Positions 1-35,232 of a stretch of DNA of 35,232 bases are shown here, piece by piece. The stretch is from the IMG/VR virus record IMGVR_UViG_2541047821_000009; one strand, 5' to 3'. The position numbers and the translations under genes are program-made. The stretch comes from a virus. Lineage: Duplodnaviria; Heunggongvirae; Uroviricota; Caudoviricetes. Each line of letters opens with the position of its first letter. Position 1 is the first letter of the stretch. The notes under the pieces are model-generated. The model ran no database searches, was not told the DNA's origin, and saw nothing but the letters and a program-made list of their open reading frames with translations.

Positions 1-1011
1 TTATAACGTCACTCCGCCTTTTAGTGGATTCAGAGTGACGGCGTTCTGCAGGTAGTCAGGCGCAAGGTGCGCATAGGTCATTGTCTGCTGAATGCTCGCA
101 TGCCCCAGAATCTGTTGCAGTGCAATTATGTTGCCCCCATTCATCATGAAATGGCTTGCGAATGTATGCCGCAGAATGTGGGTTGCCTGATTGGGAGGTA
201 TATCAGGTTTCACTCTGCGTAAAATCCCGCAAAACTTCTCATAATCTACCTTGAACAATTTGGCGCTGGCCTCCTCTTTAACTTTTTTCTCCAGTTCCTC
301 AGAAATCGGCACTGTTCGCTTTTTACCGTTTTTGGTTTTCAGGAAGGTAACCCTGCAACTTGTAATCTGTGCTGGTTTTAGCGTGGCAACTTCCGTCCAT
401 CTTCCTCCAGTGCTCAGACATAAAAGCGCGACAAGTAAGTCATCACCAGTCAAAACATTTAGCAGTTTTTCGATTTCCGCTTTTTCCAGGAACGTCATTT
501 CAGGGTTAGCCTCCGTCAGTGGCGGCAGTCCGTGAATTGGGTGTTGCCCGGAAAATTCATCCAATTGAATTAATTTTGTGAACATGCCGGATAATCGGTA
601 CATGTCGCGGTTTATCGTTGCAGCACTGATGCCGTCACGTAGTCGCATGGAGCGATAATCCATCAAAGCCCTTTTGTTCATCCGACTCACTGGTATATCA
701 CCTATGCCGCTGATGGTTTTGAGCAGATGATTAAACTCTTTTGTCCCATGCTCGTGGTTTTGCCCGTGGTATTTCCACCAGATGTCGAGCAATTCTGTCA
801 AAGTTCGGCGGTCTGCTCGCTGGCCTCCCCATTCTTTCTGACTGGCATTGGCGATTGTGTATCGCTCAAATGCTAGTGCTTCAGCTTTTCTTTCAAATTT
901 CCTGCGGATGCGTTTTCCGTCGCGACCGCGAGGTCTAATGTCCACTTCATAGCGACCATCATCGAGCTTCTTAATTGCCATAAGAAAGCCCTCCGGCGCT
1001 GTATTCACCAT
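1..1011 (-). CDS. int: Tyrosine recombinase (P2-type integrase)
   Basis: 336-aa ORF; C-terminal box II 'ILRHTFASHF' and catalytic Tyr context 'TMTYAHL'; sits at the prophage end beside the C repressor as in P2; minus-strand stop codon at bases 1-3. Confidence 0.9.
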   Translation of the reverse strand: MVNTAPEGFLMAIKKLDDGRYEVDIRPRGRDGKRIRRKFERKAEALAFERYTIANASQKEWGGQRADRRTLTELLDIWWKYHGQNHEHGTKEFNHLLKTISGIGDIPVSRMNKRALMDYRSMRLRDGISAATINRDMYRLSGMFTKLIQLDEFSGQHPIHGLPPLTEANPEMTFLEKAEIEKLLNVLTGDDLLVALLCLSTGGRWTEVATLKPAQITSCRVTFLKTKNGKKRTVPISEELEKKVKEEASAKLFKVDYEKFCGILRRVKPDIPPNQATHILRHTFASHFMMNGGNIIALQQILGHASIQQTMTYAHLAPDYLQNAVTLNPLKGGVTL

Positions 1012-3511: not shown

Positions 3512-4515
3512 TTACTGATGCTCGTTGCCATACTGAAAATACCATCAATGTTATTTTTGTTTCAGGTGGAAAGGACAGCCTTGCTCAGTGGCTTGTCGCT
3601 ATTGAAGAAAATGTACCCATATTGCCGGTTTTTGCTGATACGGGACATGAACATCCACAGACAATGAAATATCTGGATTATCTGGAAAAACGGCTTGGCC
3701 CAATTAAAAGAGTCAGAGCTGATTTTTCCTGCCGGATTGAATCAAAGCGCAAGTTTATCCAGACCAAATGGCCTGATTTGTTGGTTAACGATTGTGGAAT
3801 GTCGGAAGAAGAAGCGCACCAGCGCATCAGTTGTGCGCTGGAAATTCTCAAACCAACGGGTATCCCGTTTCTTGATTTGTGTCTGTGGAAGGGGCGTTTC
3901 CCATCAACCAAAGCCAGATTTTGCACATTTGAACTGAAACATGAACCCGTGCGTTCTCAGGTAATCCTGCCTTTACTCAATGAATTTGAGGAAGTGATTA
4001 GCTGGCAGGGAGTGCGTGCTCAGGAATCGCCATCACGCGCAGCTTTACCTGTCTGGGAAGAGGATGCAGACAACACACCCGGATTGCATGTATATCGCCC
4101 GATTTTGCACTGGAAGCATGAAGATGTATTTGCAATAGCCAGAAGACATGACATTAAGCCAAATCCGTTATATCAGCAGGGGTGTGGCCGTGTTGGTTGT
4201 ATGCCATGTATTCATGTCCGTAAATCTGAACTGGCAGAAATTTTTCGCCGGTGGCCGGAGGAAATAAAGCGGGTTGCTGAATGGGAACGACTGGTTGCGT
4301 CGTGCTCCCGTCGGGGAAATTCCACTTTTTTCCCATCCACACATGATCCGCTACGCGCAGAACGTCGTATTGAGGTTGTAACAGTCGAGGCATACGGAAT
4401 TGAAACCTACCATGACTGGACAATGACAACGCGTGGGGGTACTCAGTTTGATTTACTGGCTTCGGCGAATGATAAAGCCGTTTGCAGTAGTGTCTATGCC
4501 GGTGTATGTGAATGA
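3508..4515 (+). CDS. PAPS-reductase / DndC-like PP-loop ATP pyrophosphatase family protein
   Basis: 335 aa; N-terminal PP-loop 'VIFVSGGKDS' (SGGxDS); C-terminal Cys cluster 'GCGRVGCMPC'; coupled to A (ATGA overlap). Confidence 0.7.
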   Translation: MITDARCHTENTINVIFVSGGKDSLAQWLVAIEENVPILPVFADTGHEHPQTMKYLDYLEKRLGPIKRVRADFSCRIESKRKFIQTKWPDLLVNDCGMSEEEAHQRISCALEILKPTGIPFLDLCLWKGRFPSTKARFCTFELKHEPVRSQVILPLLNEFEEVISWQGVRAQESPSRAALPVWEEDADNTPGLHVYRPILHWKHEDVFAIARRHDIKPNPLYQQGCGRVGCMPCIHVRKSELAEIFRRWPEEIKRVAEWERLVASCSRRGNSTFFPSTHDPLRAERRIEVVTVEAYGIETYHDWTMTTRGGTQFDLLASANDKAVCSSVYAGVCE

Positions 4516-6803
4516 GTCATTCTTTCCAGGAGCAATACACCTGCGTACCTCCGTCAGCATTTGCCGCAGGCACCGGTAAGACGTTTACCGGTGCTTATGC
4601 ATGGAACGCGCCGCGCGAGGCTGTCGGGCGCGAAAGACCTCTTACACGTGACGAGATGCGTCAGGTGCAAGGTGTTTTATCCACGATTAACCGCCTGCCT
4701 TATTTTTTGCGCTCGCTGTTTACTTCACGCTACGACTACATCCGGCGCACTAAAAGCCCGGTGCACGGGTTTTATTTCCTCACATGCACTTTTCAGCGTC
4801 GTTTATGGCCGCGCATTGAGCGCGTGAATCAGCGCCATGAAATGAACACCGACGCGTCGTTGCTGTTTCTGACAGAGCGTGACCATTATGCGCGTCTGCC
4901 GGGGATGAATGACAAGGAGCTGAAAAAGTTTGCCGCCCGTATTTCATCGCAGCTTTTCATGATGTATGAGGAACTCTGCGATGCATGGGTTGATGCCCAT
5001 GGCGAAAAAGAATCGCTGTTTACGGATGAGGCGCAGGCGCATCTGTATGGTCATGTTGCTGGCGCTGCACGTGCTTTCAATATTTCCCCGCTCTACTGGA
5101 AAAAATACCGTAAAGGACAGATGACCACGAGGCAGGCATATTCTGCCATTGCCCGTCTGTTTAATGATGAGTGGTGGACTCATCAGCTTAAAGGACAGCG
5201 TATGCGCTGGCATGAAGCGTTACTGATAGCTGTCGGGGAGGTTAATAAAGACCGCTCACCTTATGCCAGTAAACACGCCATTCGTGATGTGCGTGCACGC
5301 CGCCAGGCAAATCTGGAATTTCTTAAATCGTGTGACCTTGAAAACAGGGAAACCGGCGAGCGCATCGACCTTATCAGTAAGGTGATGGGCAGTATTTCTA
5401 ATCCAGAAATTCGCCGGATGGAGCTGATGAACACCATCGCCGGTATTGAGCGTTACGCCGCCGCAGAGGGTGATGTGGGGATGTTTATCACGTTGACCGC
5501 ACCGTCAAAGTATCACCCGACACGTCAGGTCGGAAAAGGCGAAAGTAAAACCGTTCAGCTTAATCACGGCTGGAACGATGAGGCATTTAATCCAAAGGAT
5601 GCGCAGCGTTATCTCTGCCGTATCTGGAGCCTGATGCGCACGGCATTCAAGGATAATGATTTACAGGCCTACGGTTTGCGTGTCGTCGAGCCACACCATG
5701 ACGGAACGCCACACTGGCATATGATGCTTTTTTGTAATCCACGCCAGCGTAACCAGATTATCGAAATCATGCGTCGCTATGCGCTCAAAGAGGATGGCGA
5801 CGAAAGAGGAGCCGCGCGAAACCGTTTTCAGGCAAAACATCTTAACCGGGGCGGTGCTGCGGGGTATATCGCGAAATACATCTCAAAAAATATCGACGGC
5901 TATGCACTGGATGGGCAGCTCGATAACGATACCGGCAGACCGCTGAAAGATACTGCCGCGGCTGTTACCGCATGGGCGTCAACGTGGCGCATTCCGCAAT
6001 TTAAAACGGTTGGCCTGCCGACAATGGGGGCTTACCGTGAACTACGCAAATTGCCTCGCGGCGTCAGCATTGCTGATGAGTTTGACGAGCGCGTCGAGGC
6101 TGCACGCGCCGCCGCAGACAGTGGTGATTTTGCGTTGTATATCAGCGCGCAGGGTGGGGCAAATGTCCCGCGCGATTGTCAGACTGTCAGGGTCGCCCGT
6201 AGCCCGTCGGATGACGTTAACGAGTACGAGGAAGAAGTCGAGAGAGTGGTCGGCATTTACGCGCCGCATCTCGGCGCGCGTCATATTCATATCACCAGAA
6301 CGACGGACTGGCGCATTGTACCGAAAGTTCCGGTCGTTGAGCCTTTGACTTTAAAAAGCGGCATCGCCGCGCCTCGGAGTCCTGTCAATAACTGTGGAAA
6401 GCTCACTGGTGGTGATACTTCGTTACCGGCTCCCACACCTTCTGAGCACGCCGCAGCAGTGCTTAATCTGGTTGATGACGGTGTTATTGAATGGAATGAA
6501 CCGGAGGTCGTGAGGGCGCTCAGGGGCGCATTAAAACACGACCTGCGAACGCCAAACCGTCAGCAAAGAAACGGAAGCCCGTTAAAACCACATGAAATTG
6601 CACCATCGGCCAGACTGACCCGGTCGGAAAGAATGCAAATTACCCGTATCCGCGTTGACCTTGCTCAGAACGGTATCAGACCGCAGCGATGGGAGCTTGA
6701 GGCGCTGGCGCGTGGCGCGACCGTAAATTATGACGGGAAAAAATTCACGTATCCGGTCGCTGATGAGTGGCCGGGATTCTCAACAGTAATGGAGTGGAAA
6801 TGA
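4512..6803 (+). CDS. A: Rolling-circle replication initiator endonuclease (gpA)
   Basis: 763 aa (P2 A is about 761 aa); HUH-type metal motif 'HHDGTPHWHMMLF' and catalytic Tyr region 'YIAKYISKNIDGY'. Confidence 0.85.
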   Translation: MSHSFQEQYTCVPPSAFAAGTGKTFTGAYAWNAPREAVGRERPLTRDEMRQVQGVLSTINRLPYFLRSLFTSRYDYIRRTKSPVHGFYFLTCTFQRRLWPRIERVNQRHEMNTDASLLFLTERDHYARLPGMNDKELKKFAARISSQLFMMYEELCDAWVDAHGEKESLFTDEAQAHLYGHVAGAARAFNISPLYWKKYRKGQMTTRQAYSAIARLFNDEWWTHQLKGQRMRWHEALLIAVGEVNKDRSPYASKHAIRDVRARRQANLEFLKSCDLENRETGERIDLISKVMGSISNPEIRRMELMNTIAGIERYAAAEGDVGMFITLTAPSKYHPTRQVGKGESKTVQLNHGWNDEAFNPKDAQRYLCRIWSLMRTAFKDNDLQAYGLRVVEPHHDGTPHWHMMLFCNPRQRNQIIEIMRRYALKEDGDERGAARNRFQAKHLNRGGAAGYIAKYISKNIDGYALDGQLDNDTGRPLKDTAAAVTAWASTWRIPQFKTVGLPTMGAYRELRKLPRGVSIADEFDERVEAARAAADSGDFALYISAQGGANVPRDCQTVRVARSPSDDVNEYEEEVERVVGIYAPHLGARHIHITRTTDWRIVPKVPVVEPLTLKSGIAAPRSPVNNCGKLTGGDTSLPAPTPSEHAAAVLNLVDDGVIEWNEPEVVRALRGALKHDLRTPNRQQRNGSPLKPHEIAPSARLTRSERMQITRIRVDLAQNGIRPQRWELEALARGATVNYDGKKFTYPVADEWPGFSTVMEWK

Positions 6804-7255
6804 TGGCAAAAATTCACGAGGTAAAGCTGCACGCTAAATATTTTGACCTTGTGCTGGAAGGAAAGAAACGCGCAGAGTTTCGGAAAAATGACCGTAATTA
6901 TGAGCGCGGGGACACGTTGATTTTGCATGAATGGGTACAGGGTGTGTATACGGGGCGAAAGGTTGAAGCCCGGATAACAGATGTTACTGACCTGTCAGAC
7001 TGGCTGGAAGATTATGTCTTGCTAAGTATTGAGCTGCTTAATACAGGCGCATATGAGACTGTGAACTGGAAAGAACTTAGTGAGCGTGGTCTGGTATTCA
7101 GAATTAATCATGAAATTATGCATCAGCTCGGCCTTGCTGTTATGTATGAACCAGAGACGGGGATGTCTGGCGGGGCAATGGTTGCCACGGATGGAGCATG
7201 GAACTATTCAGATGAACAGATGGAGCGTGCACAGCAAAACGGGTGGCTTGGATAA
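6800..7255 (+). CDS. ASCH (PUA-like) domain protein
   Basis: 'EGKKRAEFR' matches the ASCH G-K-x-x-E-x-R signature; ATG overlaps the A stop; first gene of the accessory locus. Confidence 0.6.
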   Translation: MMAKIHEVKLHAKYFDLVLEGKKRAEFRKNDRNYERGDTLILHEWVQGVYTGRKVEARITDVTDLSDWLEDYVLLSIELLNTGAYETVNWKELSERGLVFRINHEIMHQLGLAVMYEPETGMSGGAMVATDGAWNYSDEQMERAQQNGWLG

Positions 7256-7625: not shown

Positions 7626-8651
7626 ATGATGATTGTAAAGGTGATAGACCTTTTTTGTGGTGCTGGCGGATTAACTCATGGTTTGCAACTCGCAGGTCTT
7701 GATGTCGTTGCTGGTATTGACCTTGAGGGGGAATGTCGATTTCCCTATGAAAAAAACAATAAATCAAAGTTTATTGAGAAAGATATCGCTAAAGTAACCA
7801 AAGAGGAATTACTGAAGCTATATGGTGATGCGTCTATAAAAGTATTGGCTGGATGTGCACCTTGCCAACCTTTTTCAAAATATACTCAAGGAAAAGATAA
7901 AGCGGAAGATAAAAAATGGCCTCTTCTTTATGAGTTCGAGCGTTTAATTCGCGAGGTATCTCCAGAAATTGTAACAATGGAGAACGTGCCTGATGTAACT
8001 AAACATAAAGTTTATAATGACTTTTATTGTTCGTTGTTAGAACTGGGATATTATGTTTGGGCATCAAAGGTTGATTGTGTCGAATATGGAATTCCACAGA
8101 ACCGTTCTCGTCATGTATTGTTAGCCTCAAAGTTGGGGGAGATTGAGTTAGTAAAACGTAATGATGTTATTTTGAAAACTGTTAGGGATGCAATAGGTGG
8201 CCTTCCACCATTAGAAGATGGTCAAACAGATCCAAATGATATATTGCATAGAGCCAGTAAATTAAACTCGATTAATAAAAAAAGAATTATACACTCTATT
8301 CCAGGTGGTACATGGAAGGACTGGCCGGAAGAACTTATTGCTGCTTGTCATATGAAGTCTAGCGGTAAAGGGTATGCTAGCGTATATGGGAGGATGTCTT
8401 GGGATAAGCCAAGCCCGACAATTACAACTCTTTGTTATGGTTTTGGGAATGGTCGTTTTGGCCACCCAGAACAGAACAGAGCTATTTCTCTTAGAGAAGC
8501 GGCTTTGTTGCAAACATTTCCTATGGATTATGTTTTTGTTGAAGAACAAGAAAAGTTTGTTATAAGAAGTATTGGAAAAATGATAGGTAATGCTGTGCCA
8601 GTTGAGTTAGGAAAAGTCATTGGGCAATCAATAAAAAATCATTTGAAATAA
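7626..8651 (+). CDS. DNA (cytosine-5)-methyltransferase
   Basis: Motif I 'LFCGAGG', motif IV 'GCAPCQPFS', motif VI 'TMENVPD', motif VIII 'QNRSRHVLLA', C-terminal 'GNAVPVELG'; AT-rich codon usage unlike the phage backbone. Confidence 0.85.
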   Translation: MMIVKVIDLFCGAGGLTHGLQLAGLDVVAGIDLEGECRFPYEKNNKSKFIEKDIAKVTKEELLKLYGDASIKVLAGCAPCQPFSKYTQGKDKAEDKKWPLLYEFERLIREVSPEIVTMENVPDVTKHKVYNDFYCSLLELGYYVWASKVDCVEYGIPQNRSRHVLLASKLGEIELVKRNDVILKTVRDAIGGLPPLEDGQTDPNDILHRASKLNSINKKRIIHSIPGGTWKDWPEELIAACHMKSSGKGYASVYGRMSWDKPSPTITTLCYGFGNGRFGHPEQNRAISLREAALLQTFPMDYVFVEEQEKFVIRSIGKMIGNAVPVELGKVIGQSIKNHLK

Positions 8652-8655
8652 TAAA

Positions 8656-8680
8656 ATGGCCTGCTTTGCAGGCCTTGTGA
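8656..8680. terminator. Bidirectional intrinsic terminator between convergent genes
   Basis: Hairpin GGCCTGC-ttt-GCAGGCC (8658-8674) flanked by an A-run upstream and a T-rich tract downstream. Confidence 0.55.
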
Positions 8681-9361
8681 TTATTTCTCTAAGTATTCAT
8701 TATTATTTATATAATGTTCTATATTATTCGCGATTGCATCAAGATAGGCTATTACTTCTAATGAAATATTCTCTAAATCCTGATATGAAACATTTTTCCC
8801 AATCTCAGCAAATGATACATTTCCATGAGATAAATCATTGCGATGTTGTTTAACAGTGGCTAACTTTTCACCATGTTTAGTGTGAGTGTAATCAGAATGG
8901 GTTGAAAATCCATATATTTTCGATTTTTCTTTTATTTCCTCTCTATCAATATTGCCTGAAAATATTTTCTTTTTGTTGAATGTACCATAAGAAATACCAC
9001 AGGATATGCCTTTAGTAAGTCCGTTGATTAAATTATCGATGTTAACAGATTCATTTTTTAATCTTTTTAAAATTTCTGATTTTAGGTTTTTTTTAAGTTT
9101 GTCAAACTCTATGTTTCTATCATAAATAGTCTCATGTATAAGGCAGATAGCCTCTCTCATTGTTGATTCAATAAGGTTGTATAATAGTATATATACTGCA
9201 CCCTTTAGAGTTTTTCGTGATTGAGATGTAATGGTGAACTTATGTTCTTTATTATCGGATGATATTAATTCCGCACCAGCATGCTCAATAAATTTTAAAA
9301 GATCTAAATAGGCCAAGATTTCTCCTGACCTTTCGTCAAAATCCTCACGAAAACGATCCAT
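8681..9361 (-). CDS. HEPN-like protein (putative RNase effector), partner of the DUF262 protein
   Basis: 226 aa; C-terminal 'QHRNDLSHG' fits the HEPN R-x(4-6)-H motif; its start is 1 nt from the stop of the upstream DUF262 gene. Confidence 0.5.
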   Translation of the reverse strand: MDRFREDFDERSGEILAYLDLLKFIEHAGAELISSDNKEHKFTITSQSRKTLKGAVYILLYNLIESTMREAICLIHETIYDRNIEFDKLKKNLKSEILKRLKNESVNIDNLINGLTKGISCGISYGTFNKKKIFSGNIDREEIKEKSKIYGFSTHSDYTHTKHGEKLATVKQHRNDLSHGNVSFAEIGKNVSYQDLENISLEVIAYLDAIANNIEHYINNNEYLEK

Positions 9362-9362
9362 G

Positions 9363-10505
9363 TTAATCCTCTAATAGTTTGTCTCGCACATATTCAATTC
9401 GTTCAATTACCTTCACGCGACTATTTGCTCCGTCGGAGGTGGTTAATTGTTTGAATTCTTCTGAGCTTAGCCAATCTAAGTTTTTGGGGACAAGGTTAGG
9501 CTCTAGACGTAATGCGAGTGCAGCACCAACAGCGAGAGATTCAAATCTAACTCGAGGTGTAGATTTTGCAGTGATAGTTTTCTTAAAGCCTGCTGGGAAA
9601 TGGTTTTCAACGAAAGACAGAACATTCGAAAACTCTTCTTTCATTGAGTTTTGTTCAGCTTCATCTATATTACTCTTTTCCTTCATGTAATCATTCAGAA
9701 AATCACGCACGGAATGATCAAATTTCTTATATTTATCTAAGTAGGCAAAGAATCTCAATGTAAATTCTAACCGTTCATCTCGTTTTTCTTTAGCCTCAGA
9801 TAAAGGTGCTAACTCCTTAAATTTAGATATTGTCGAGCATGGCTTAATAACCTGCGTATATAAATTTGTTGAGCCAAGTTCTGAACCTTTACGAACTTCC
9901 ATATCTTTCAATATGTCACTACCAGAGTTAATTCGCTCAAAAAGATCCCTGCGGGTTTCTTCATTGCATTTAGAACTCAACTCTATAACACGCACAGGAA
10001 TTCTCATGAAACGGCGTTGGCGTGATAATGGTAAATCTTGGAATCTGAAACCATTAAGAGAACTTAAAGATTTCAGATCTTGTAAAACTAATTCATTGTG
10101 GATAAACGCATGTATGGTTCTAACACGCTGTGAGCCATCAACAATTTCAATCCGTCCATCTAAATCGGGATCTTCTGAAAAGACATCAGCTGTAAATATA
10201 TATGGTATAGGGAAGCCCAAAATTAAAGACTCTATTAATCTTGATTGTCTCTTTTCATTCCAAACAAAGTCCCTTTGATAATCAGGAACAAAGAGTTCGT
10301 TGGTATCATCCTCTAACCCGTTATGATACTTATTAACTAATAACTCAACAGTAAATTCTTTGGTCTCAAAGTCAACATCCTTTTGCTCTGCGCGAATTTG
10401 CTCTTCAGCCTCTTGTTTTATAACTTCTAGCTGAGCTAGGAGTTCTGCCCTTTTTTTGGCATTATCTTCATGTTCTAGTTGAGATTTTAACCCAATAATA
10501 TCCAT
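9363..10505 (-). CDS. DUF262 (ParB/Srx-like, GmrS-type N-terminal domain) protein
   Basis: 380 aa; 'VPDYQRDFVW' and 'IVDGSQRVRTI' match the DUF262 signatures; no HNH/DUF1524 nuclease domain seen in the C-terminal half. Confidence 0.7.
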   Translation of the reverse strand: MDIIGLKSQLEHEDNAKKRAELLAQLEVIKQEAEEQIRAEQKDVDFETKEFTVELLVNKYHNGLEDDTNELFVPDYQRDFVWNEKRQSRLIESLILGFPIPYIFTADVFSEDPDLDGRIEIVDGSQRVRTIHAFIHNELVLQDLKSLSSLNGFRFQDLPLSRQRRFMRIPVRVIELSSKCNEETRRDLFERINSGSDILKDMEVRKGSELGSTNLYTQVIKPCSTISKFKELAPLSEAKEKRDERLEFTLRFFAYLDKYKKFDHSVRDFLNDYMKEKSNIDEAEQNSMKEEFSNVLSFVENHFPAGFKKTITAKSTPRVRFESLAVGAALALRLEPNLVPKNLDWLSSEEFKQLTTSDGANSRVKVIERIEYVRDKLLED

Positions 10506-10690
10506 ATCCAGATCCCTTAATGATTGTTATAAATGAAAACAGATAGCATACCGCATAGATCAGGAAAAATGCCATCGCATGCATGAATTTGCATGAGAGA
10601 AAGATTACCATTTGGGATTAGCTTTGCCAGTGCTGATGGGTTTTGGATTTTAATCATGTACTGCATCAAAACCGCCTCATGAAGCGGGCG

Positions 10691-33365: not shown

Positions 33366-33584
33366 ATGTTTCATTGTCCTTTATGCCAGCATGCCGCACA
33401 TGCGCGTACAAGCCGCTATATCACTGACACGACAAAAGAGCGTTATCACCAGTGCCAGAACGTGAATTGCAGCGCCACGTTCATCACCTATGAGTCGGTA
33501 CAGCGATACATCGTGAAGCCGGGAGAAGTCCACGCCGTAAGGCCGCACCCGTTGCCGTCAGGGCAGCAAATTATGTGGATGTAA
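33366..33584 (+). CDS. ogr: Late-gene transcriptional activator Ogr (zinc finger)
   Basis: Internal Met 'MFHCPLCQHAAHARTSRYI...HQCQNVNCSATF' gives 72 aa with a C2C2 zinc-binding motif, as in P2 Ogr. Confidence 0.8.
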   Translation: MFHCPLCQHAAHARTSRYITDTTKERYHQCQNVNCSATFITYESVQRYIVKPGEVHAVRPHPLPSGQQIMWM

Positions 33585-33596
33585 TTACAAACAGAA

Positions 33597-33625
33597 AGCC
33601 CCTCAGTCGAGGGGCTTTATCTTAT
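33597..33625. terminator. Intrinsic terminator after ogr (possibly bidirectional)
   Basis: Perfect hairpin AGCCCCTC-agtc-GAGGGGCT followed by TTATCTTATTT; the stop of the minus-strand gene lies 10 bp beyond. Confidence 0.6.
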
Positions 33626-33634
33626 TTGAGCTAT

Positions 33635-34042
33635 TTACTTACCTGTGTAGGTATGAGTTTTGGATAACACCACTGTTTGTGCAGGTTTTTCCATTAACGG
33701 AGCGATTTCATTGCATGTGGTCAATGGGTCTTCAAAGGTATATCCAATAGACTTATATTGGTTAACTATATTGATTTCACTTACATTTTTTAAAAATGAA
33801 GAAGGAGCGTCATGTGTCCAGAGTGGGGTGCATACACCGGACATAATTAAATGATTATAGGCTTCTGATGTGATTTTTTTAGCAGGGAGAACAACGGTAA
33901 GAGAGCTATCTTTTGTTGTGATTTCCAGTGGTTGCCATGGTTTCAGTTGTTTTTGAAGAGTTTTAATGTCATTCGTGTTTGCGTATGCATTGAGTGAAAT
34001 TATTAAGGTGGTTATTGCCATTATTGATTTAAGAGTTGCCAT
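33635..34042 (-). CDS. Secreted hypothetical protein (signal peptide)
   Basis: 135 aa; N-terminal signal peptide 'MATLKSIMAITTLIISLNAYA' with an AYA-N cleavage-like site; strongly AT-rich. Confidence 0.5.
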   Translation of the reverse strand: MATLKSIMAITTLIISLNAYANTNDIKTLQKQLKPWQPLEITTKDSSLTVVLPAKKITSEAYNHLIMSGVCTPLWTHDAPSSFLKNVSEINIVNQYKSIGYTFEDPLTTCNEIAPLMEKPAQTVVLSKTHTYTGK

Positions 34043-34093
34043 AGAAAATCCTTAATAAACATTTGGTTGAGTAAATGTTATACATCTAAAAAA

Positions 34094-34117
34094 AGAAAAA
34101 AATAAAGCCCCATATGC
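34094..34117 (-). terminator. Hairpin AAAGCCCC-N8-GGGGCTTT beside an A-run (terminator-like on the minus strand; possible att-core relic)
   Basis: Perfect 8-bp stem read directly; the preceding AAAAAGAAAAAAATAA gives a U-run for the minus strand only. Confidence 0.3.
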
Positions 34118-34221
34118 TTGGGGCTTTCGGTAATCGATGTGGACGCTATGTGGACAGCGTTTGATATAAATCCATTTATATCATCAGGTTAGGTGCTTTT
34201 TTGTGACACCATCCCTGTCTT

Positions 34222-34248
34222 CCCCCACATGATGTGGGGGTTTTTTTT
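34222..34248 (+). terminator. Intrinsic terminator (plus strand) upstream of fieF
   Basis: CCCCCACA-tga-TGTGGGGG hairpin followed by TTTTTTTT. Confidence 0.6.
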
Positions 34249-34329
34249 ATCCTCAATTTGCCTGCTGCTTAATGCATTGCAGATGATTTGCTTCCGTTAT
34301 ACTAGCGTCAGTTGATAGCGGGAGTATTT

Positions 34330-35232
34330 ATGAATCAATCTTATGGACGGCTGGTCAGTCGGGCGGCGATTGCTGCAACGGCGATGGCTTCACTGCTATT
34401 GCTGATTAAAATTTTTGCATGGTGGTATACCGGGTCGGTGAGTATTCTCGCCGCGCTGGTGGATTCGCTGGTGGATATCGGCGCGTCGTTGACGAATTTA
34501 CTGGTGGTGCGATATTCCCTGCAACCTGCCGACGATAATCACTCGTTTGGTCACGGTAAAGCTGAGTCCCTCGCGGCGCTGGCGCAAAGTATGTTTATCT
34601 CCGGTTCGGCACTATTCCTCTTTTTGACGGGTATTCAACATCTGATATCTCCAACACCGATGACAGATCCAGGCGTCGGGGTTATCGTGACAATTGTGGC
34701 GCTAATTTGTACGATTATCCTTGTCTCGTTTCAGCGGTGGGTGGTGCGCCGGACGCAAAGCCAGGCGGTGCGGGCTGATATGCTACATTACCAGTCTGAT
34801 GTTATGATGAACGGCGCAATTCTGCTGGCGCTGGGGTTGTCCTGGTACGGCTGGCATCGCGCCGATGCTCTGTTTGCATTGGGAATCGGCATCTATATTT
34901 TATATAGCGCGTTACGCATGGGATATGAGGCGGTACAGTCATTACTGGATCGCGCATTACCTGATGAGGAACGGCAAGAAATTATTGATATCGTGACTTC
35001 CTGGCCGGGTGTTAGCGGCGCTCACGATCTTCGCACGCGGCAGTCAGGGCCGACCCGCTTTATTCAGATTCATTTGGAAATGGAAGACTCTCTGCCTTTG
35101 GTTCAGGCACATATGGTGGCGGATCAGGTAGAGCAGGCTATTTTACGGCGTTTTCCGGGATCGGATGTGATTATCCATCAGGACCCCTGTTCCGTCGTAC
35201 CCAGGGAGGGTAAACGGTCTATGCTTTCATAA
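34330..35232 (+). CDS. fieF: Cation diffusion facilitator family ferrous-iron/zinc efflux transporter FieF (YiiP)
   Basis: Start at '[20 protein letters not shown]' gives 300 aa; multiple transmembrane helices and a cytoplasmic C-terminal domain; recognised as enterobacterial FieF; host gene. Confidence 0.85.

What the first reader, a model, noticed from the sequence alone, without database searches (positions are those of the whole stretch)
33585..34330. Right prophage/host junction: AT-rich secreted-protein gene between ogr and host fieF, with terminator hairpins and a P2-att-like A-rich/GCCC element
After the ogr terminator there is a minus-strand, AT-rich gene for a 135-aa signal-peptide protein (33635..34042), then two hairpins and the start of fieF. 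In P2 the attachment site directly follows ogr, so a gene here is unexpected: it is either a moron inside the prophage or a remnant of another element. The sequence AAAAAATAAAGCCCC at about 34086..34101 resembles the start of the P2 att core as I recall it, so attR may lie near 34080..34120.
Basis: partly seen in the sequence, partly recalled or inferred. Interest (0 to 1): 0.5.

Follow-up and report, generated by a model that had tools for sequence, protein, structure and literature searches.

The report
Phage cargo gene beside attR
The small AT-rich gene between ogr and fieF is an add-on gene carried inside a WΦ-type P2-like prophage; the true phage/host junction lies about 100 bp further right than guessed, in the tail of the cpxP/CpxQ transcript; this layout is ordinary, and only the exported protein's function is unknown.

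Summary
The proposed attR position is wrong.

- **Where attR is.** A three-way comparison of attL, the empty cpxP-fieF site and attR gives a 47-bp core at 34205..34251. This core is the terminator-proximal part of the cpxP 3'UTR, which encodes the sRNA CpxQ.
- **What lies left of the core.** The region is colinear with the annotated attP of phage P2. It has two ATGTGGAC integrase arm repeats (34137..34155) and an IHF-like segment (34160..34193).
- **Known site.** Phage WΦ has the same core and arms, and its integrase is 97% identical. This is therefore the known WΦ/L-413C attachment site.
- **The insert.** Relative to WΦ and P2, about 515 bp (33619..34133, 35% GC) is inserted between the ogr terminator and the P arm. 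It carries the 135-aa ORF, a conserved -10 element and Shine-Dalgarno sequence, and its own hairpin.
- **Proof it is phage cargo.** The packaged Yersinia phage P37 genome carries an identical gene in the order int-attP-ORF-ogr.
It lies at 34097..34111 and is just the A-tract and stem of that hairpin.
- **The protein.** It belongs to PHROG 3807, which has no known function. It has a signal peptide, two near-invariant cysteines and dN/dS of 0.08-0.19, and a confident AlphaFold2 model finds no known fold relative. In distant P2-like prophages it sits downstream of the repressor, in the slot that K139 gives to its periplasmic exclusion protein Glo.
- **Function.** My best guess is a periplasmic protein made in lysogens that acts at the cell envelope, possibly in exclusion. 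This is inferred, not shown.

The parts
33366..33584 (+). ogr, the late-gene activator and last conserved gene of the P2-type backbone
   Evidence: Annotated as ogrK in the near-identical record NZ_CP080233. Its 3' end aligns with P2 and WΦ ogr.
33595..33618 (.). Bidirectional intrinsic terminator hairpin. It ends ogr on the + strand and ORF135 on the - strand.
   Evidence: Terminator-like on both strands. Folding energy is -18.2 and -18.0 kcal/mol, z -4.3 and -4.4. The sequence is identical to the annotated P2 ogr terminator.
33619..34133 (.). Moron insert of about 515 bp at 35% GC. It is absent from P2, WΦ and the NZRM4169 prophage.
   Evidence: Alignments. Most Peduovirus genomes stop matching at window 33618. 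GC is 0.348 against 0.511 for the prophage.
33635..34042 (-). ORF135, an exported protein of the PHROG 3807 family. The mature part is about 114 aa with Cys71 and Cys110.
   Evidence: ORF listing. phrog_3807 match at E 2e-60 over the full length. 100% identical to P37 gp16. dN/dS is 0.08 and 0.19. The family has 192 cluster representatives. AlphaFold2 pLDDT is 90.8.
33980..34042 (-). Codons 1-21, a predicted Sec signal peptide: MATLKSIMAITTLIISLNAYA|N. There is no lipobox.
   Evidence: Hydropathy. The N-terminus is variable but always hydrophobic, and Ala at -1 is nearly invariant across the family. pLDDT is low over residues 1-21. No signal-peptide predictor was available, so this is inferred.
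34049..34082 (-). Putative expression signals of the moron: -10 TATAAC at 34082..34077 and Shine-Dalgarno AAGGA at 34053..34049
   Evidence: Read from the sequence. TATAA(C/A) and AAGGA are kept at identical spacing in Salmonella phage FSL SP-004, while the bases around them differ. The consensus scan did not call a promoter here because the -35 is weak. This is inferred.
34085..34127 (-). Hairpin (34104..34127) followed by a long T-run on the minus strand. It is terminator-like, and in the circular phage it would shield ORF135 from transcription coming from C-int across attP.
Evidence: minus strand, 9 pairs. Folding energy -14.8 kcal/mol, z -3.5. The stem is conserved and the loop differs in FSL SP-004.
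34137..34155 (+). Integrase arm-type sites of the P arm: ATGTGGAC twice, 11 bp apart
   Evidence: Exact repeats. They align with the annotated Int P-arm site of P2. The published consensus is tgTGGaCa (PMC3448106). They are identical in WΦ and P37.
34160..34193 (+). IHF-site-like segment (ATAAATCCATTTATATCA) between the arm sites and the core
   Evidence: It aligns with the annotated IHF site of P2 attP. Binding was not tested.
34205..34251 (+). attR core, 47 bp shared by attL, attB, attR and attP: GACACCATCCCTGTCTTCCCCCACATGATGTGGGGGTTTTTTTTATC. It equals the 3' part of the cpxP 3'UTR / CpxQ, including its terminator (34222..34248).
   Evidence: Three-way and five-way alignments. Identical in WΦ. 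Nearly all E. coli genomes match the window only from 34205 rightward. In the empty site the cpxP stop lies 24 nt before the core. CpxQ is about 60 nt and spans nearly the whole 3'UTR (PMC9438474).
34252..34329 (+). Unaltered host DNA upstream of fieF
   Evidence: Identical to the empty site.
34330..35232 (+). Host gene fieF
   Evidence: Annotation.

Best explanation
The window ends with the right arm of a WΦ-type Peduovirus (P2-like) prophage integrated between cpxP and fieF.

**Integration.** Recombination happens inside a 47-bp core at 34205..34251. This core duplicates the terminator-proximal part of the cpxP 3'UTR (sRNA CpxQ). cpxP/CpxQ therefore stays intact at attL, and a promoterless copy with a substituted 5' end is left at attR, in front of an untouched fieF.

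**attP anatomy.** Left of the core lies the normal P2-type P arm: an IHF-like segment and two integrase arm repeats.

**The insert.** Between that arm and the ogr terminator this phage lineage has gained a self-contained, AT-rich cassette of about 515 bp, a classic moron. It has its own weak sigma-70-type promoter and Shine-Dalgarno sequence, one gene on the opposite strand to ogr, and terminator hairpins on both sides.

**The product.** The gene encodes a 135-aa pre-protein. It is exported by the Sec pathway and cleaved after AYA, and it probably forms one disulfide (Cys71-Cys110) in the periplasm.

**Inferred, not shown.** The protein is made in lysogens and acts at the cell envelope. The most likely role is to block superinfecting phage at or after adsorption, as the non-homologous periplasmic Glo protein of the P2-like vibriophage K139 does. 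Protection of the envelope in some other way is also possible.

The confidence value of 0.85 refers to the anatomy: moron inside the prophage, and core at 34205..34251. The exclusion function alone I put at about 0.3.
For: **Core and junction (shown)**
- Alignments of attL, attB and attR, plus the attP sites of P37 and FSL SP-004.
- Almost every one of 5425 E. coli genomes matches the window only from 34205 (empty sites) or from 34134 (other prophages at this site).
- WΦ has an identical core and arms, and its Int is 97% identical.
- Published work places WΦ and L-413C at this locus, and lists prophage Wphi1 at cpxP-fieF in E. coli W.
- The region is colinear with the annotated Int, IHF and core sites of P2.

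**Cargo status (shown)**
- P37 virion DNA carries the identical gene between attP and ogr.
- P2, WΦ and NZRM4169 lack it, and the homology break falls exactly at 33618/33619.
- GC is 35% against 51%.

**A real gene (shown)**
- Match to PHROG 3807 and 192 cluster representatives.
- dN/dS of 0.08 and 0.19.
- pLDDT of 90.8.

**Export (inferred from sequence)**
- The hydrophobic N-terminus and the -1 Ala are conserved, and two Cys are nearly invariant.

**Expression in lysogens and an envelope role (inferred from context)**
- In three distant P2-like prophages the homologue lies directly downstream of the HTH repressor and on the same strand.
- In two of them the order is repressor, BRCT-like protein, homologue. 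K139 has cI, orf2 (BRCT), glo, and Glo is annotated as periplasmic and involved in phage exclusion.
- No Ogr-type late promoter lies upstream of the gene, by my reading of the sequence.
- The same slot holds alleles at 100%, 69%, 68% and 44% aa identity.
- The family also occurs on plasmids.
Against: - Glo is not homologous beyond the signal peptide, so the exclusion idea rests on position and cellular compartment only.
- Two family members sit in chromosomal surroundings with no sign of a phage.
- Rare fusions to pentapeptide-repeat, bPH and VasI domains point in no single direction.
- The promoter is weak by consensus and the scan did not call it. Expression in lysogens was not measured.
- The exact 5' end of CpxQ could not be checked. 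Rfam has no model for it, and no paper in the library gives the sequence.
Confidence: 0.85

Rival explanations
1. attR lies at about 34080..34120, at the A-rich/GCCCC element. Everything to its right would then be host DNA.
For: AAAAAATAAAGCCCC (34097..34111) resembles the first 14 nt of the P2 core, AAAAAATAAGCCCG. The P2 core sequence was confirmed from the P2 record.
Against: - Empty sites share nothing with the window to the left of 34205.
- 34134..34204 is phage DNA. It is present in P37, FSL SP-004 and WΦ attP, and it carries the Int arm repeats.
- The full P2 core has no match with up to 3 mismatches. The 14-mer resemblance is one of 12 in the window.
- The integrase is WΦ-type, not P2-type.
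Confidence: 0.01
2. The 135-aa gene is flanking host or island DNA, or a remnant of another mobile element. attR would then lie directly after ogr at 33590..33630.
For: In P2 and WΦ the att region follows the ogr terminator directly. The segment's AT-richness marks it as foreign to the phage backbone.
Against: - The gene lies on the phage side of the arm sites and the core.
- It is packaged in P37 and FSL SP-004 virion genomes between attP and ogr.
- No E. coli genome has it at an unoccupied cpxP-fieF site. It is found in only 43 of 5426 genomes, one copy each. The two right ends I inspected (NZ_CP080233 and 20KM0223N) have it next to ogr and fieF.
Confidence: 0.02
3. ORF135 is a moron whose periplasmic product serves the host rather than phage competition. 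It might be an inhibitor or immunity protein against envelope-targeting enzymes (lysozymes, colicins, T6SS effectors), a stress or virulence factor, or a modulator of the nearby Cpx envelope-stress circuit.
For: - The protein is small, exported and disulfide-bonded, like the lysozyme inhibitors and periplasmic immunity proteins I know of.
- Family members occur on plasmids and in chromosomal contexts, not only in phages.
- One family member is fused to a T6SS-associated VasI domain.
- Its location next to cpxP/CpxQ is suggestive, but coincidental in Klebsiella and Burkholderia phages, which integrate elsewhere or do not integrate.
Against: - There is no fold or sequence similarity to Ivy, PliC/MliC, PliG or any solved immunity protein.
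- Most contexts examined are prophage lysogeny/tail junctions: 9 of the first 12, and 10 of 15 once the three plasmid-collection hits are counted.
- No toxin or effector gene is found as a partner.
Confidence: 0.3
4. ORF135 works in the lytic cycle, for example as a periplasmic lysis or release accessory, or as a protein that modifies the receptor after infection. It would not be a lysogenic-conversion gene.
For: It sits next to the late tail operon and ogr in every Enterobacterales example. Expression timing was not measured.
Against: - It is on the opposite strand to the late operon and is boxed in by terminators.
- No TGT-N12-ACA Ogr-type activator site lies at about -55, by my reading of the sequence.
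- It is dispensable: P2, WΦ and about 95% of prophages with this integrase lack it (43 carriers against 789 integrase matches).
- In distant relatives it is co-oriented with the repressor.
Confidence: 0.1

Closest known systems
Coliphage WΦ (NC_005056) and its attachment site at cpxP-fieF; also used by L-413C and by prophage Wphi1 of E. coli W
   Same: - The 47-bp core is identical, and so are the P-arm and P'-arm TGTGGAC repeats.
- The integrase is 97% identical.
- The order ogr, terminator, P arm, core, P' arm, int is the same.
- The same chromosomal locus is reported in the literature.
   Different: WΦ has no gene between the ogr terminator and the P arm. The window carries the 515-bp ORF135 cassette there.
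Yersinia phage P37 (NC_070907, Peduovirus P37), gp16
   Same: - The ORF is identical (0 of 408 nt differ).
- The promoter region, hairpin and attP are identical.
- The gene order int, attP, ORF, ogr, D is the same in a packaged genome.
   Different: P37 is a free phage record and the gene is annotated only as hypothetical. The window is the integrated form in an E. coli-type chromosome.
Phage P2 attP (NC_001895), as annotated
   Same: - The ogr terminator is identical.
- The Int arm repeats and IHF segment are homologous and equally spaced.
- The overall attP architecture is the same.
   Different: The core is different: 27 bp, AAAAAATAAGCCCGTGTAAGGGAGATT, which is absent from the window. Int is only 52% identical. 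P2 has no cargo gene at this position.
Glo of Vibrio phage K139, a periplasmic protein involved in phage exclusion
   Same: - Glo is also a small exported protein (137 aa) of a P2-like temperate phage, encoded in the lysogeny and integration region.
- In distant relatives the ORF135 family takes the same slot: repressor, BRCT-like ORF, then the exported protein.
   Different: - There is no sequence homology beyond the signal peptide.
- In the window the gene is not in the C-int operon. It is a separate unit on the far side of attP.
- A role in exclusion has not been tested for ORF135.
Morons, as defined for lambdoid phages by Hendrix and colleagues (from my own knowledge), and cargo next to att in P2-like phages, such as ctx of ΦCTX (from my own knowledge)
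   Same: - It is an independent transcription unit of deviant base composition.
- It is inserted between two backbone elements and flanked by terminators.
- It is absent from close relatives.
   Different: The slot between ogr and the P arm is not one of the two P2 cargo hotspots usually described, the tin/old region and the Z/fun region (from my own knowledge; not checked in a paper here).

Membership tests
WΦ-type P2-like (Peduovirus) attachment site | A core sequence shared by attL, attR, attB and attP | tested here: met
   A 47-bp identical core appears in attL (strain 4/4), the empty site, the window's attR, and the attP of P37, FSL SP-004 and WΦ.
WΦ-type P2-like (Peduovirus) attachment site | P2-type arm sites (direct repeats, consensus tgTGGaCa) on both sides of the core | tested here: met
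   ATGTGGAC occurs twice at 34137..34155. GTGTGGACACTATGTGGACAC lies next to the int stop in attL and attP. The consensus comes from PMC3448106.
WΦ-type P2-like (Peduovirus) attachment site | A cognate tyrosine integrase of the WΦ specificity class | tested here: met
   The window Int (1..981/1011, minus strand) is 97% identical to WΦ Int and 52% to P2 Int.
WΦ-type P2-like (Peduovirus) attachment site | Int, IHF and Cox actually bind, and the crossover falls within the core | not testable with these tools
   Only homology to the annotated P2 sites is available.
P2 att core (locI type) | Presence of the 27-bp core AAAAAATAAGCCCGTGTAAGGGAGATT at the junction | tested here: not met
   There are no matches with up to 3 mismatches anywhere in the window. 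The 14-mer resemblance at 34097..34111 has 3 mismatches and is not unique.
Moron (autonomous cargo unit in a phage genome) | Present in some closely related phages and absent in others, at a precise insertion point | tested here: met
   It is absent from P2, WΦ and NZRM4169, and present in the window, P37 and FSL SP-004. The break falls at 33618/33619 and about 34133.
Moron (autonomous cargo unit in a phage genome) | Base composition that deviates from the backbone | tested here: met
   34.8% GC against 51.1%.
Moron (autonomous cargo unit in a phage genome) | Own promoter and terminator, and expression from the repressed prophage | tested here: inconclusive
   Terminator hairpins lie on both sides. 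A conserved -10 and Shine-Dalgarno sequence are present, but the -35 is weak and the scan did not call a promoter. Expression was not measurable here.
PHROG 3807 (phage protein family of unknown function) | A full-length, significant match to the family profile | tested here: met
   E 2e-60, residues 1-135 against profile positions 1-135.
Periplasmic superinfection-exclusion proteins (K139 Glo type) | Sequence or fold homology to Glo | tested here: not met
   hhalign aligns only 14 signal-peptide residues, probability 44%.
Periplasmic superinfection-exclusion proteins (K139 Glo type) | Export to the periplasm | tested here: inconclusive
   Signal-peptide features are conserved across 71 homologues. 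No dedicated predictor or experiment was available.
Periplasmic superinfection-exclusion proteins (K139 Glo type) | Reduces infection by the same or other phages when expressed | not testable with these tools
   This needs plating and DNA-entry assays.
Known anti-phage defence systems (PADLOC) | A match to any defence-system protein model | tested here: not met
   No PADLOC families match at E up to 10.

The most novel reading that the evidence does not exclude
PHROG 3807 would be a new, widespread family of small disulfide-bonded periplasmic proteins with no known fold relative. It has about 190 clusters at 50% identity. Temperate P2-like phages, and some plasmids, would express it from the lysogeny side of the genome to block entry of competing phages or other envelope attack. 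The highly diverged alleles found in the same ogr-att slot would then reflect different specificities.
Probability: 0.3. Interest if true: 0.5.

Novelty: already known. Interest (0 to 1): 0.22.

Why it matters
**Annotation.** The result fixes the right boundary of a common E. coli prophage type. About 789 of 5426 complete genomes carry this integrase. The boundary is at 34251, and the 47-bp repeat belongs to the cpxP/CpxQ 3' end. The sRNA therefore survives at attL, and fieF keeps its own upstream region.

**Biology.** The one open item is the cargo protein. It is a conserved, confidently folded, exported protein with no known relatives, and it recurs at the tail/lysogeny junction of P2-like phages from Escherichia to Burkholderia. 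If it proves to be an exclusion or envelope-protection factor, it would add a third cargo slot to the P2 family and a new protein family to the list of prophage-encoded envelope factors. Otherwise the locus is an ordinary prophage end.

Tried and rejected
- **Rfam.** A search of the empty site and attL at gathering thresholds found nothing, because CpxQ has no model. An E-value search of the window's right end gave only weak, below-threshold hits caused by the terminator hairpins: Hrs1, rimP leader and isrJ.
- **Literature.** A full-text search for the core sequence, to pin down the 5' end of CpxQ, found no paper. Karlsson et al. 2006 (PMC1482927), which maps the WΦ site, is not held.
- **First structure model.** A model built from 8 close homologues was poor (pLDDT 59.7). 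I replaced it with a 71-sequence model.
- **Family libraries.** Pfam, NCBIfam and PADLOC gave nothing for the protein, nor did Pfam for the 71 family members.
- **Fusion partners.** The longer family members are fused to inconsistent domains: pentapeptide repeats, bPH and VasI.
- **K139 Glo.** I tested it as a possible homologue and rejected it.
- **Ogr-dependent promoter.** I looked for a TGT-N12-ACA late promoter upstream of ORF135. The only such dyad-like string is the integrase arm repeat itself, at the wrong distance and beyond a terminator, so I rejected it.
- **Promoter for a hybrid CpxQ at attR.** I looked for a promoter in the P arm that could drive it, and the scan found none.
- **Positive selection.** I tested for it between the two E. 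coli alleles. The result was purifying selection (omega 0.15-0.19) with a mosaic breakpoint instead.
Full report
**What is in the sequence**

ogr ends at 33584. A perfect 10-bp-stem hairpin follows at 33595..33618 and reads as a terminator on both strands. A 135-codon ORF runs on the minus strand from 34042 to 33635. It is 36% GC, against 51% for the rest of the prophage and 52% for fieF.

Upstream of the ORF on the minus strand there is an AAGGA Shine-Dalgarno sequence 6 nt before the ATG and a TATAAC hexamer at 34082..34077. Next comes a second hairpin at 34104..34127 whose minus-strand form is followed by a long T-run. A third hairpin at 34222..34240, with eight T's after it, precedes fieF, which starts at 34330.

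It is simply the A-tract and left stem of the second hairpin.

**Where the prophage ends**

A megablast of 33560..34340 against 5426 complete E. coli genomes gave three classes:
- Nearly all genomes match only from 34205 rightward.
- Several hundred match from 34134 rightward.
- 43 genomes match throughout.

An unoccupied site (cpxP-fieF, L002) and a left junction from a genome carrying a 99.4%-identical integrase (strain 4/4, L005: cpxP, then int) were aligned with the window. The three share exactly 47 bp, GACACCATCCCTGTCTTCCCCCACATGATGTGGGGGTTTTTTTTATC, which is window 34205..34251. To the left of this core, attR diverges from attB. To the right of it, attL diverges from attB. This is the att core.

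In the empty site the cpxP stop codon lies 24 nt before the core, and the core contains the cpxP terminator. The sRNA CpxQ is described as about 60 nt and as spanning almost the whole cpxP 3'UTR (PMC9438474). The core therefore corresponds to roughly the 3' three-quarters of CpxQ. I could not verify the sRNA's exact 5' end, because Rfam has no model and no paper in the library holds the sequence.

Integration thus leaves cpxP/CpxQ intact at attL. It places a promoterless copy with a substituted 5' end in front of fieF, whose own upstream region is unchanged.

**The attP anatomy confirms this**

The P2 record annotates the order ogr, terminator, Int P arm, IHF, core, Cox, Int P' arm. The window is colinear with it:
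- The ogr terminator is identical to P2's.
- 34137..34155 carries two ATGTGGAC repeats 11 bp apart, aligned with the P2 P-arm site.
- 34160..34193 aligns with the P2 IHF site.

The published arm consensus for P2-type integrases is tgTGGaCa (PMC3448106).

Phage WΦ has the same arms and the same 47-bp core, and its integrase is 97% identical to the window's. P2 Int is only 52% identical. WΦ and L-413C are reported to integrate at this E. coli locus, and prophage Wphi1 of E. coli W is listed at cpxP-fieF.

The P2 27-bp core does not occur in the window, even with 3 mismatches. The attR guess of 34080..34120 is therefore wrong by about 100 bp.

**The gene is phage cargo**

- Relative to P2, WΦ and an E. 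coli prophage at the same site (NZRM4169, L003), the window has about 515 extra bases (33619..34133). They lie between the ogr terminator and the P arm.
- Most sequenced Peduoviruses match the window at about 96% identity up to 33618 and then stop.
- The packaged genome of Yersinia phage P37 carries the ORF with 0 differences in 408 nt, in the order int, attP, ORF, ogr, D. Its attP equals the left half of the window's attR, plus the core, plus the right half of attL.
- Salmonella phage FSL SP-004 has a 69%-identical homologue in the same place.

The cassette is bracketed by hairpins. The left one doubles as the ogr terminator. In the circular phage, the right one would stop C-int transcription that crosses attP. 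Its stem is conserved and its loop differs in FSL SP-004.

**The protein**

- It matches PHROG 3807 (unknown function) over its full length at E 2e-60. Pfam, NCBIfam and PADLOC give nothing.
- An exhaustive profile search found 192 representatives of 50%-identity clusters, mostly 120-135 aa.
- Across 71 of them the N-terminus varies in sequence but is always hydrophobic.
- Ala21 (the -1 position of AYA|N), Pro38, Thr58, Tyr62, Cys71, Asn94, Gly100, Cys110 and Thr129 are at least 90% conserved. There is no lipobox.
- dN/dS is 0.08 against FSL SP-004. It is 0.19 against a second E. coli allele that shares the promoter and signal-peptide region almost exactly but is only about 70% identical at the nucleotide level in the mature part. 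That allele is a recombinant mosaic.
- AlphaFold2 with the 71-sequence alignment gives pLDDT 90.8 for a compact alpha/beta domain.

This is a real, constrained, exported protein of unknown fold class and unknown function.

**Clues to function**

- The family keeps one genomic neighbourhood across Peduoviridae. It lies next to gpD and ogr at the tail/lysogeny boundary in E. coli/Yersinia, Salmonella, Klebsiella and Burkholderia phages; a homologue is also encoded by Serratia phage KSP20, whose context I did not examine.
- In three distant P2-like prophages it lies immediately downstream of the HTH repressor and on the same strand.
- In two of those, a BRCT-like ORF sits in between. That is the order cI, orf2 (BRCT), glo in vibriophage K139, and Glo is annotated as a periplasmic protein involved in phage exclusion.
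- Glo itself is not homologous.
- Other members lie next to a prophage integrase, on small and large plasmids, and occasionally in plain chromosomal contexts.
- The same ogr-att slot holds alleles at 100%, 69%, 68% and 44% aa identity.
- Only 43 of 5426 E. coli genomes carry the gene, against 789 with this integrase. It is therefore optional cargo.

Taken together, the most likely role is an envelope-acting protein made in lysogens, possibly for superinfection exclusion. This is inference from position and compartment only, and I put it at about 0.3. An inhibitor or immunity role against envelope-damaging enzymes is about equally possible.

**Verdict**

The locus is an ordinary, already-described kind of prophage end. 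The att site is the known WΦ site, and the gene already sits in GenBank phage records as a hypothetical protein. What remains of interest is the uncharacterised exported protein family.

Noticed in passing
window 7626..10505: The variable slot between replication gene A and portal gene Q is P2's tin/old position. Here it holds three genes: a C5 cytosine methylase (7626..8651, +), a MAE_28990-type HEPN protein (8681..9361, -) and a DUF262/GmrSD_N protein (9363..10505, -). The last one hits PADLOC NsnA (3e-55) and PD-T4-2_A (7e-35). This looks like anti-phage defence cargo in a known P2 hotspot. Window 9300..10660 is not shared with the best-matching Peduoviruses.
   Followed up: partly
window 34205..34251 (and L002 2001..2047, L005 attL): The WΦ-type att core is the 3' part of the cpxP 3'UTR, that is, of the Hfq-dependent sRNA CpxQ including its terminator. 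attL keeps CpxQ intact. attR leaves a copy whose first roughly 15 nt are replaced by phage sequence (GGTTAGGTGCTTTTTTGT), and the scan found no promoter for it. No paper found in the library links CpxQ to this phage attachment site.
   Followed up: partly
L021 840..1241 (E. coli 20KM0223N) against window 33635..34133: A second E. coli allele of ORF135 occurs in 27 genomes. It is nearly identical in the promoter, 5'UTR and signal-peptide codons, but only about 70% identical at the nucleotide level in the mature domain. This points to a recombination breakpoint inside the gene. The allele also lacks two signal-peptide codons (AY).
   Followed up: partly
L024 (NZ_CP051374, Salmonella Newport 'plasmid' p20723-1) 3812..6917: This record is filed as a 194-kb linear plasmid, yet it carries fieF, pfkA and sbp next to a P2-like prophage end with a 44%-identical ORF135 homologue. 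It looks like a chromosomal fragment mislabelled as a plasmid. It also shows that the same att site and cargo slot are used in Salmonella.
   Followed up: no
L010 7036..8652, L018 1241..2795, L011 7639..8638: In distant P2-like prophages with 186/CI-type switch regions, the ORF135 homologue sits in an apparent lysogenic operon: HTH repressor, sometimes a 159-aa BRCT-like protein, the homologue, then an 83-92-aa ORF. This mirrors cI-orf2-glo of K139. In L011 a umuDC-like pair follows.
   Followed up: partly
window 1..1011: The window begins exactly at the stop codon of the integrase gene, so attL and cpxP lie just outside it. The longest int ORF (336 aa) extends 10 codons upstream of the start used in WΦ and in RefSeq annotations (326 aa, MAIKKLDDG...).
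   Followed up: no
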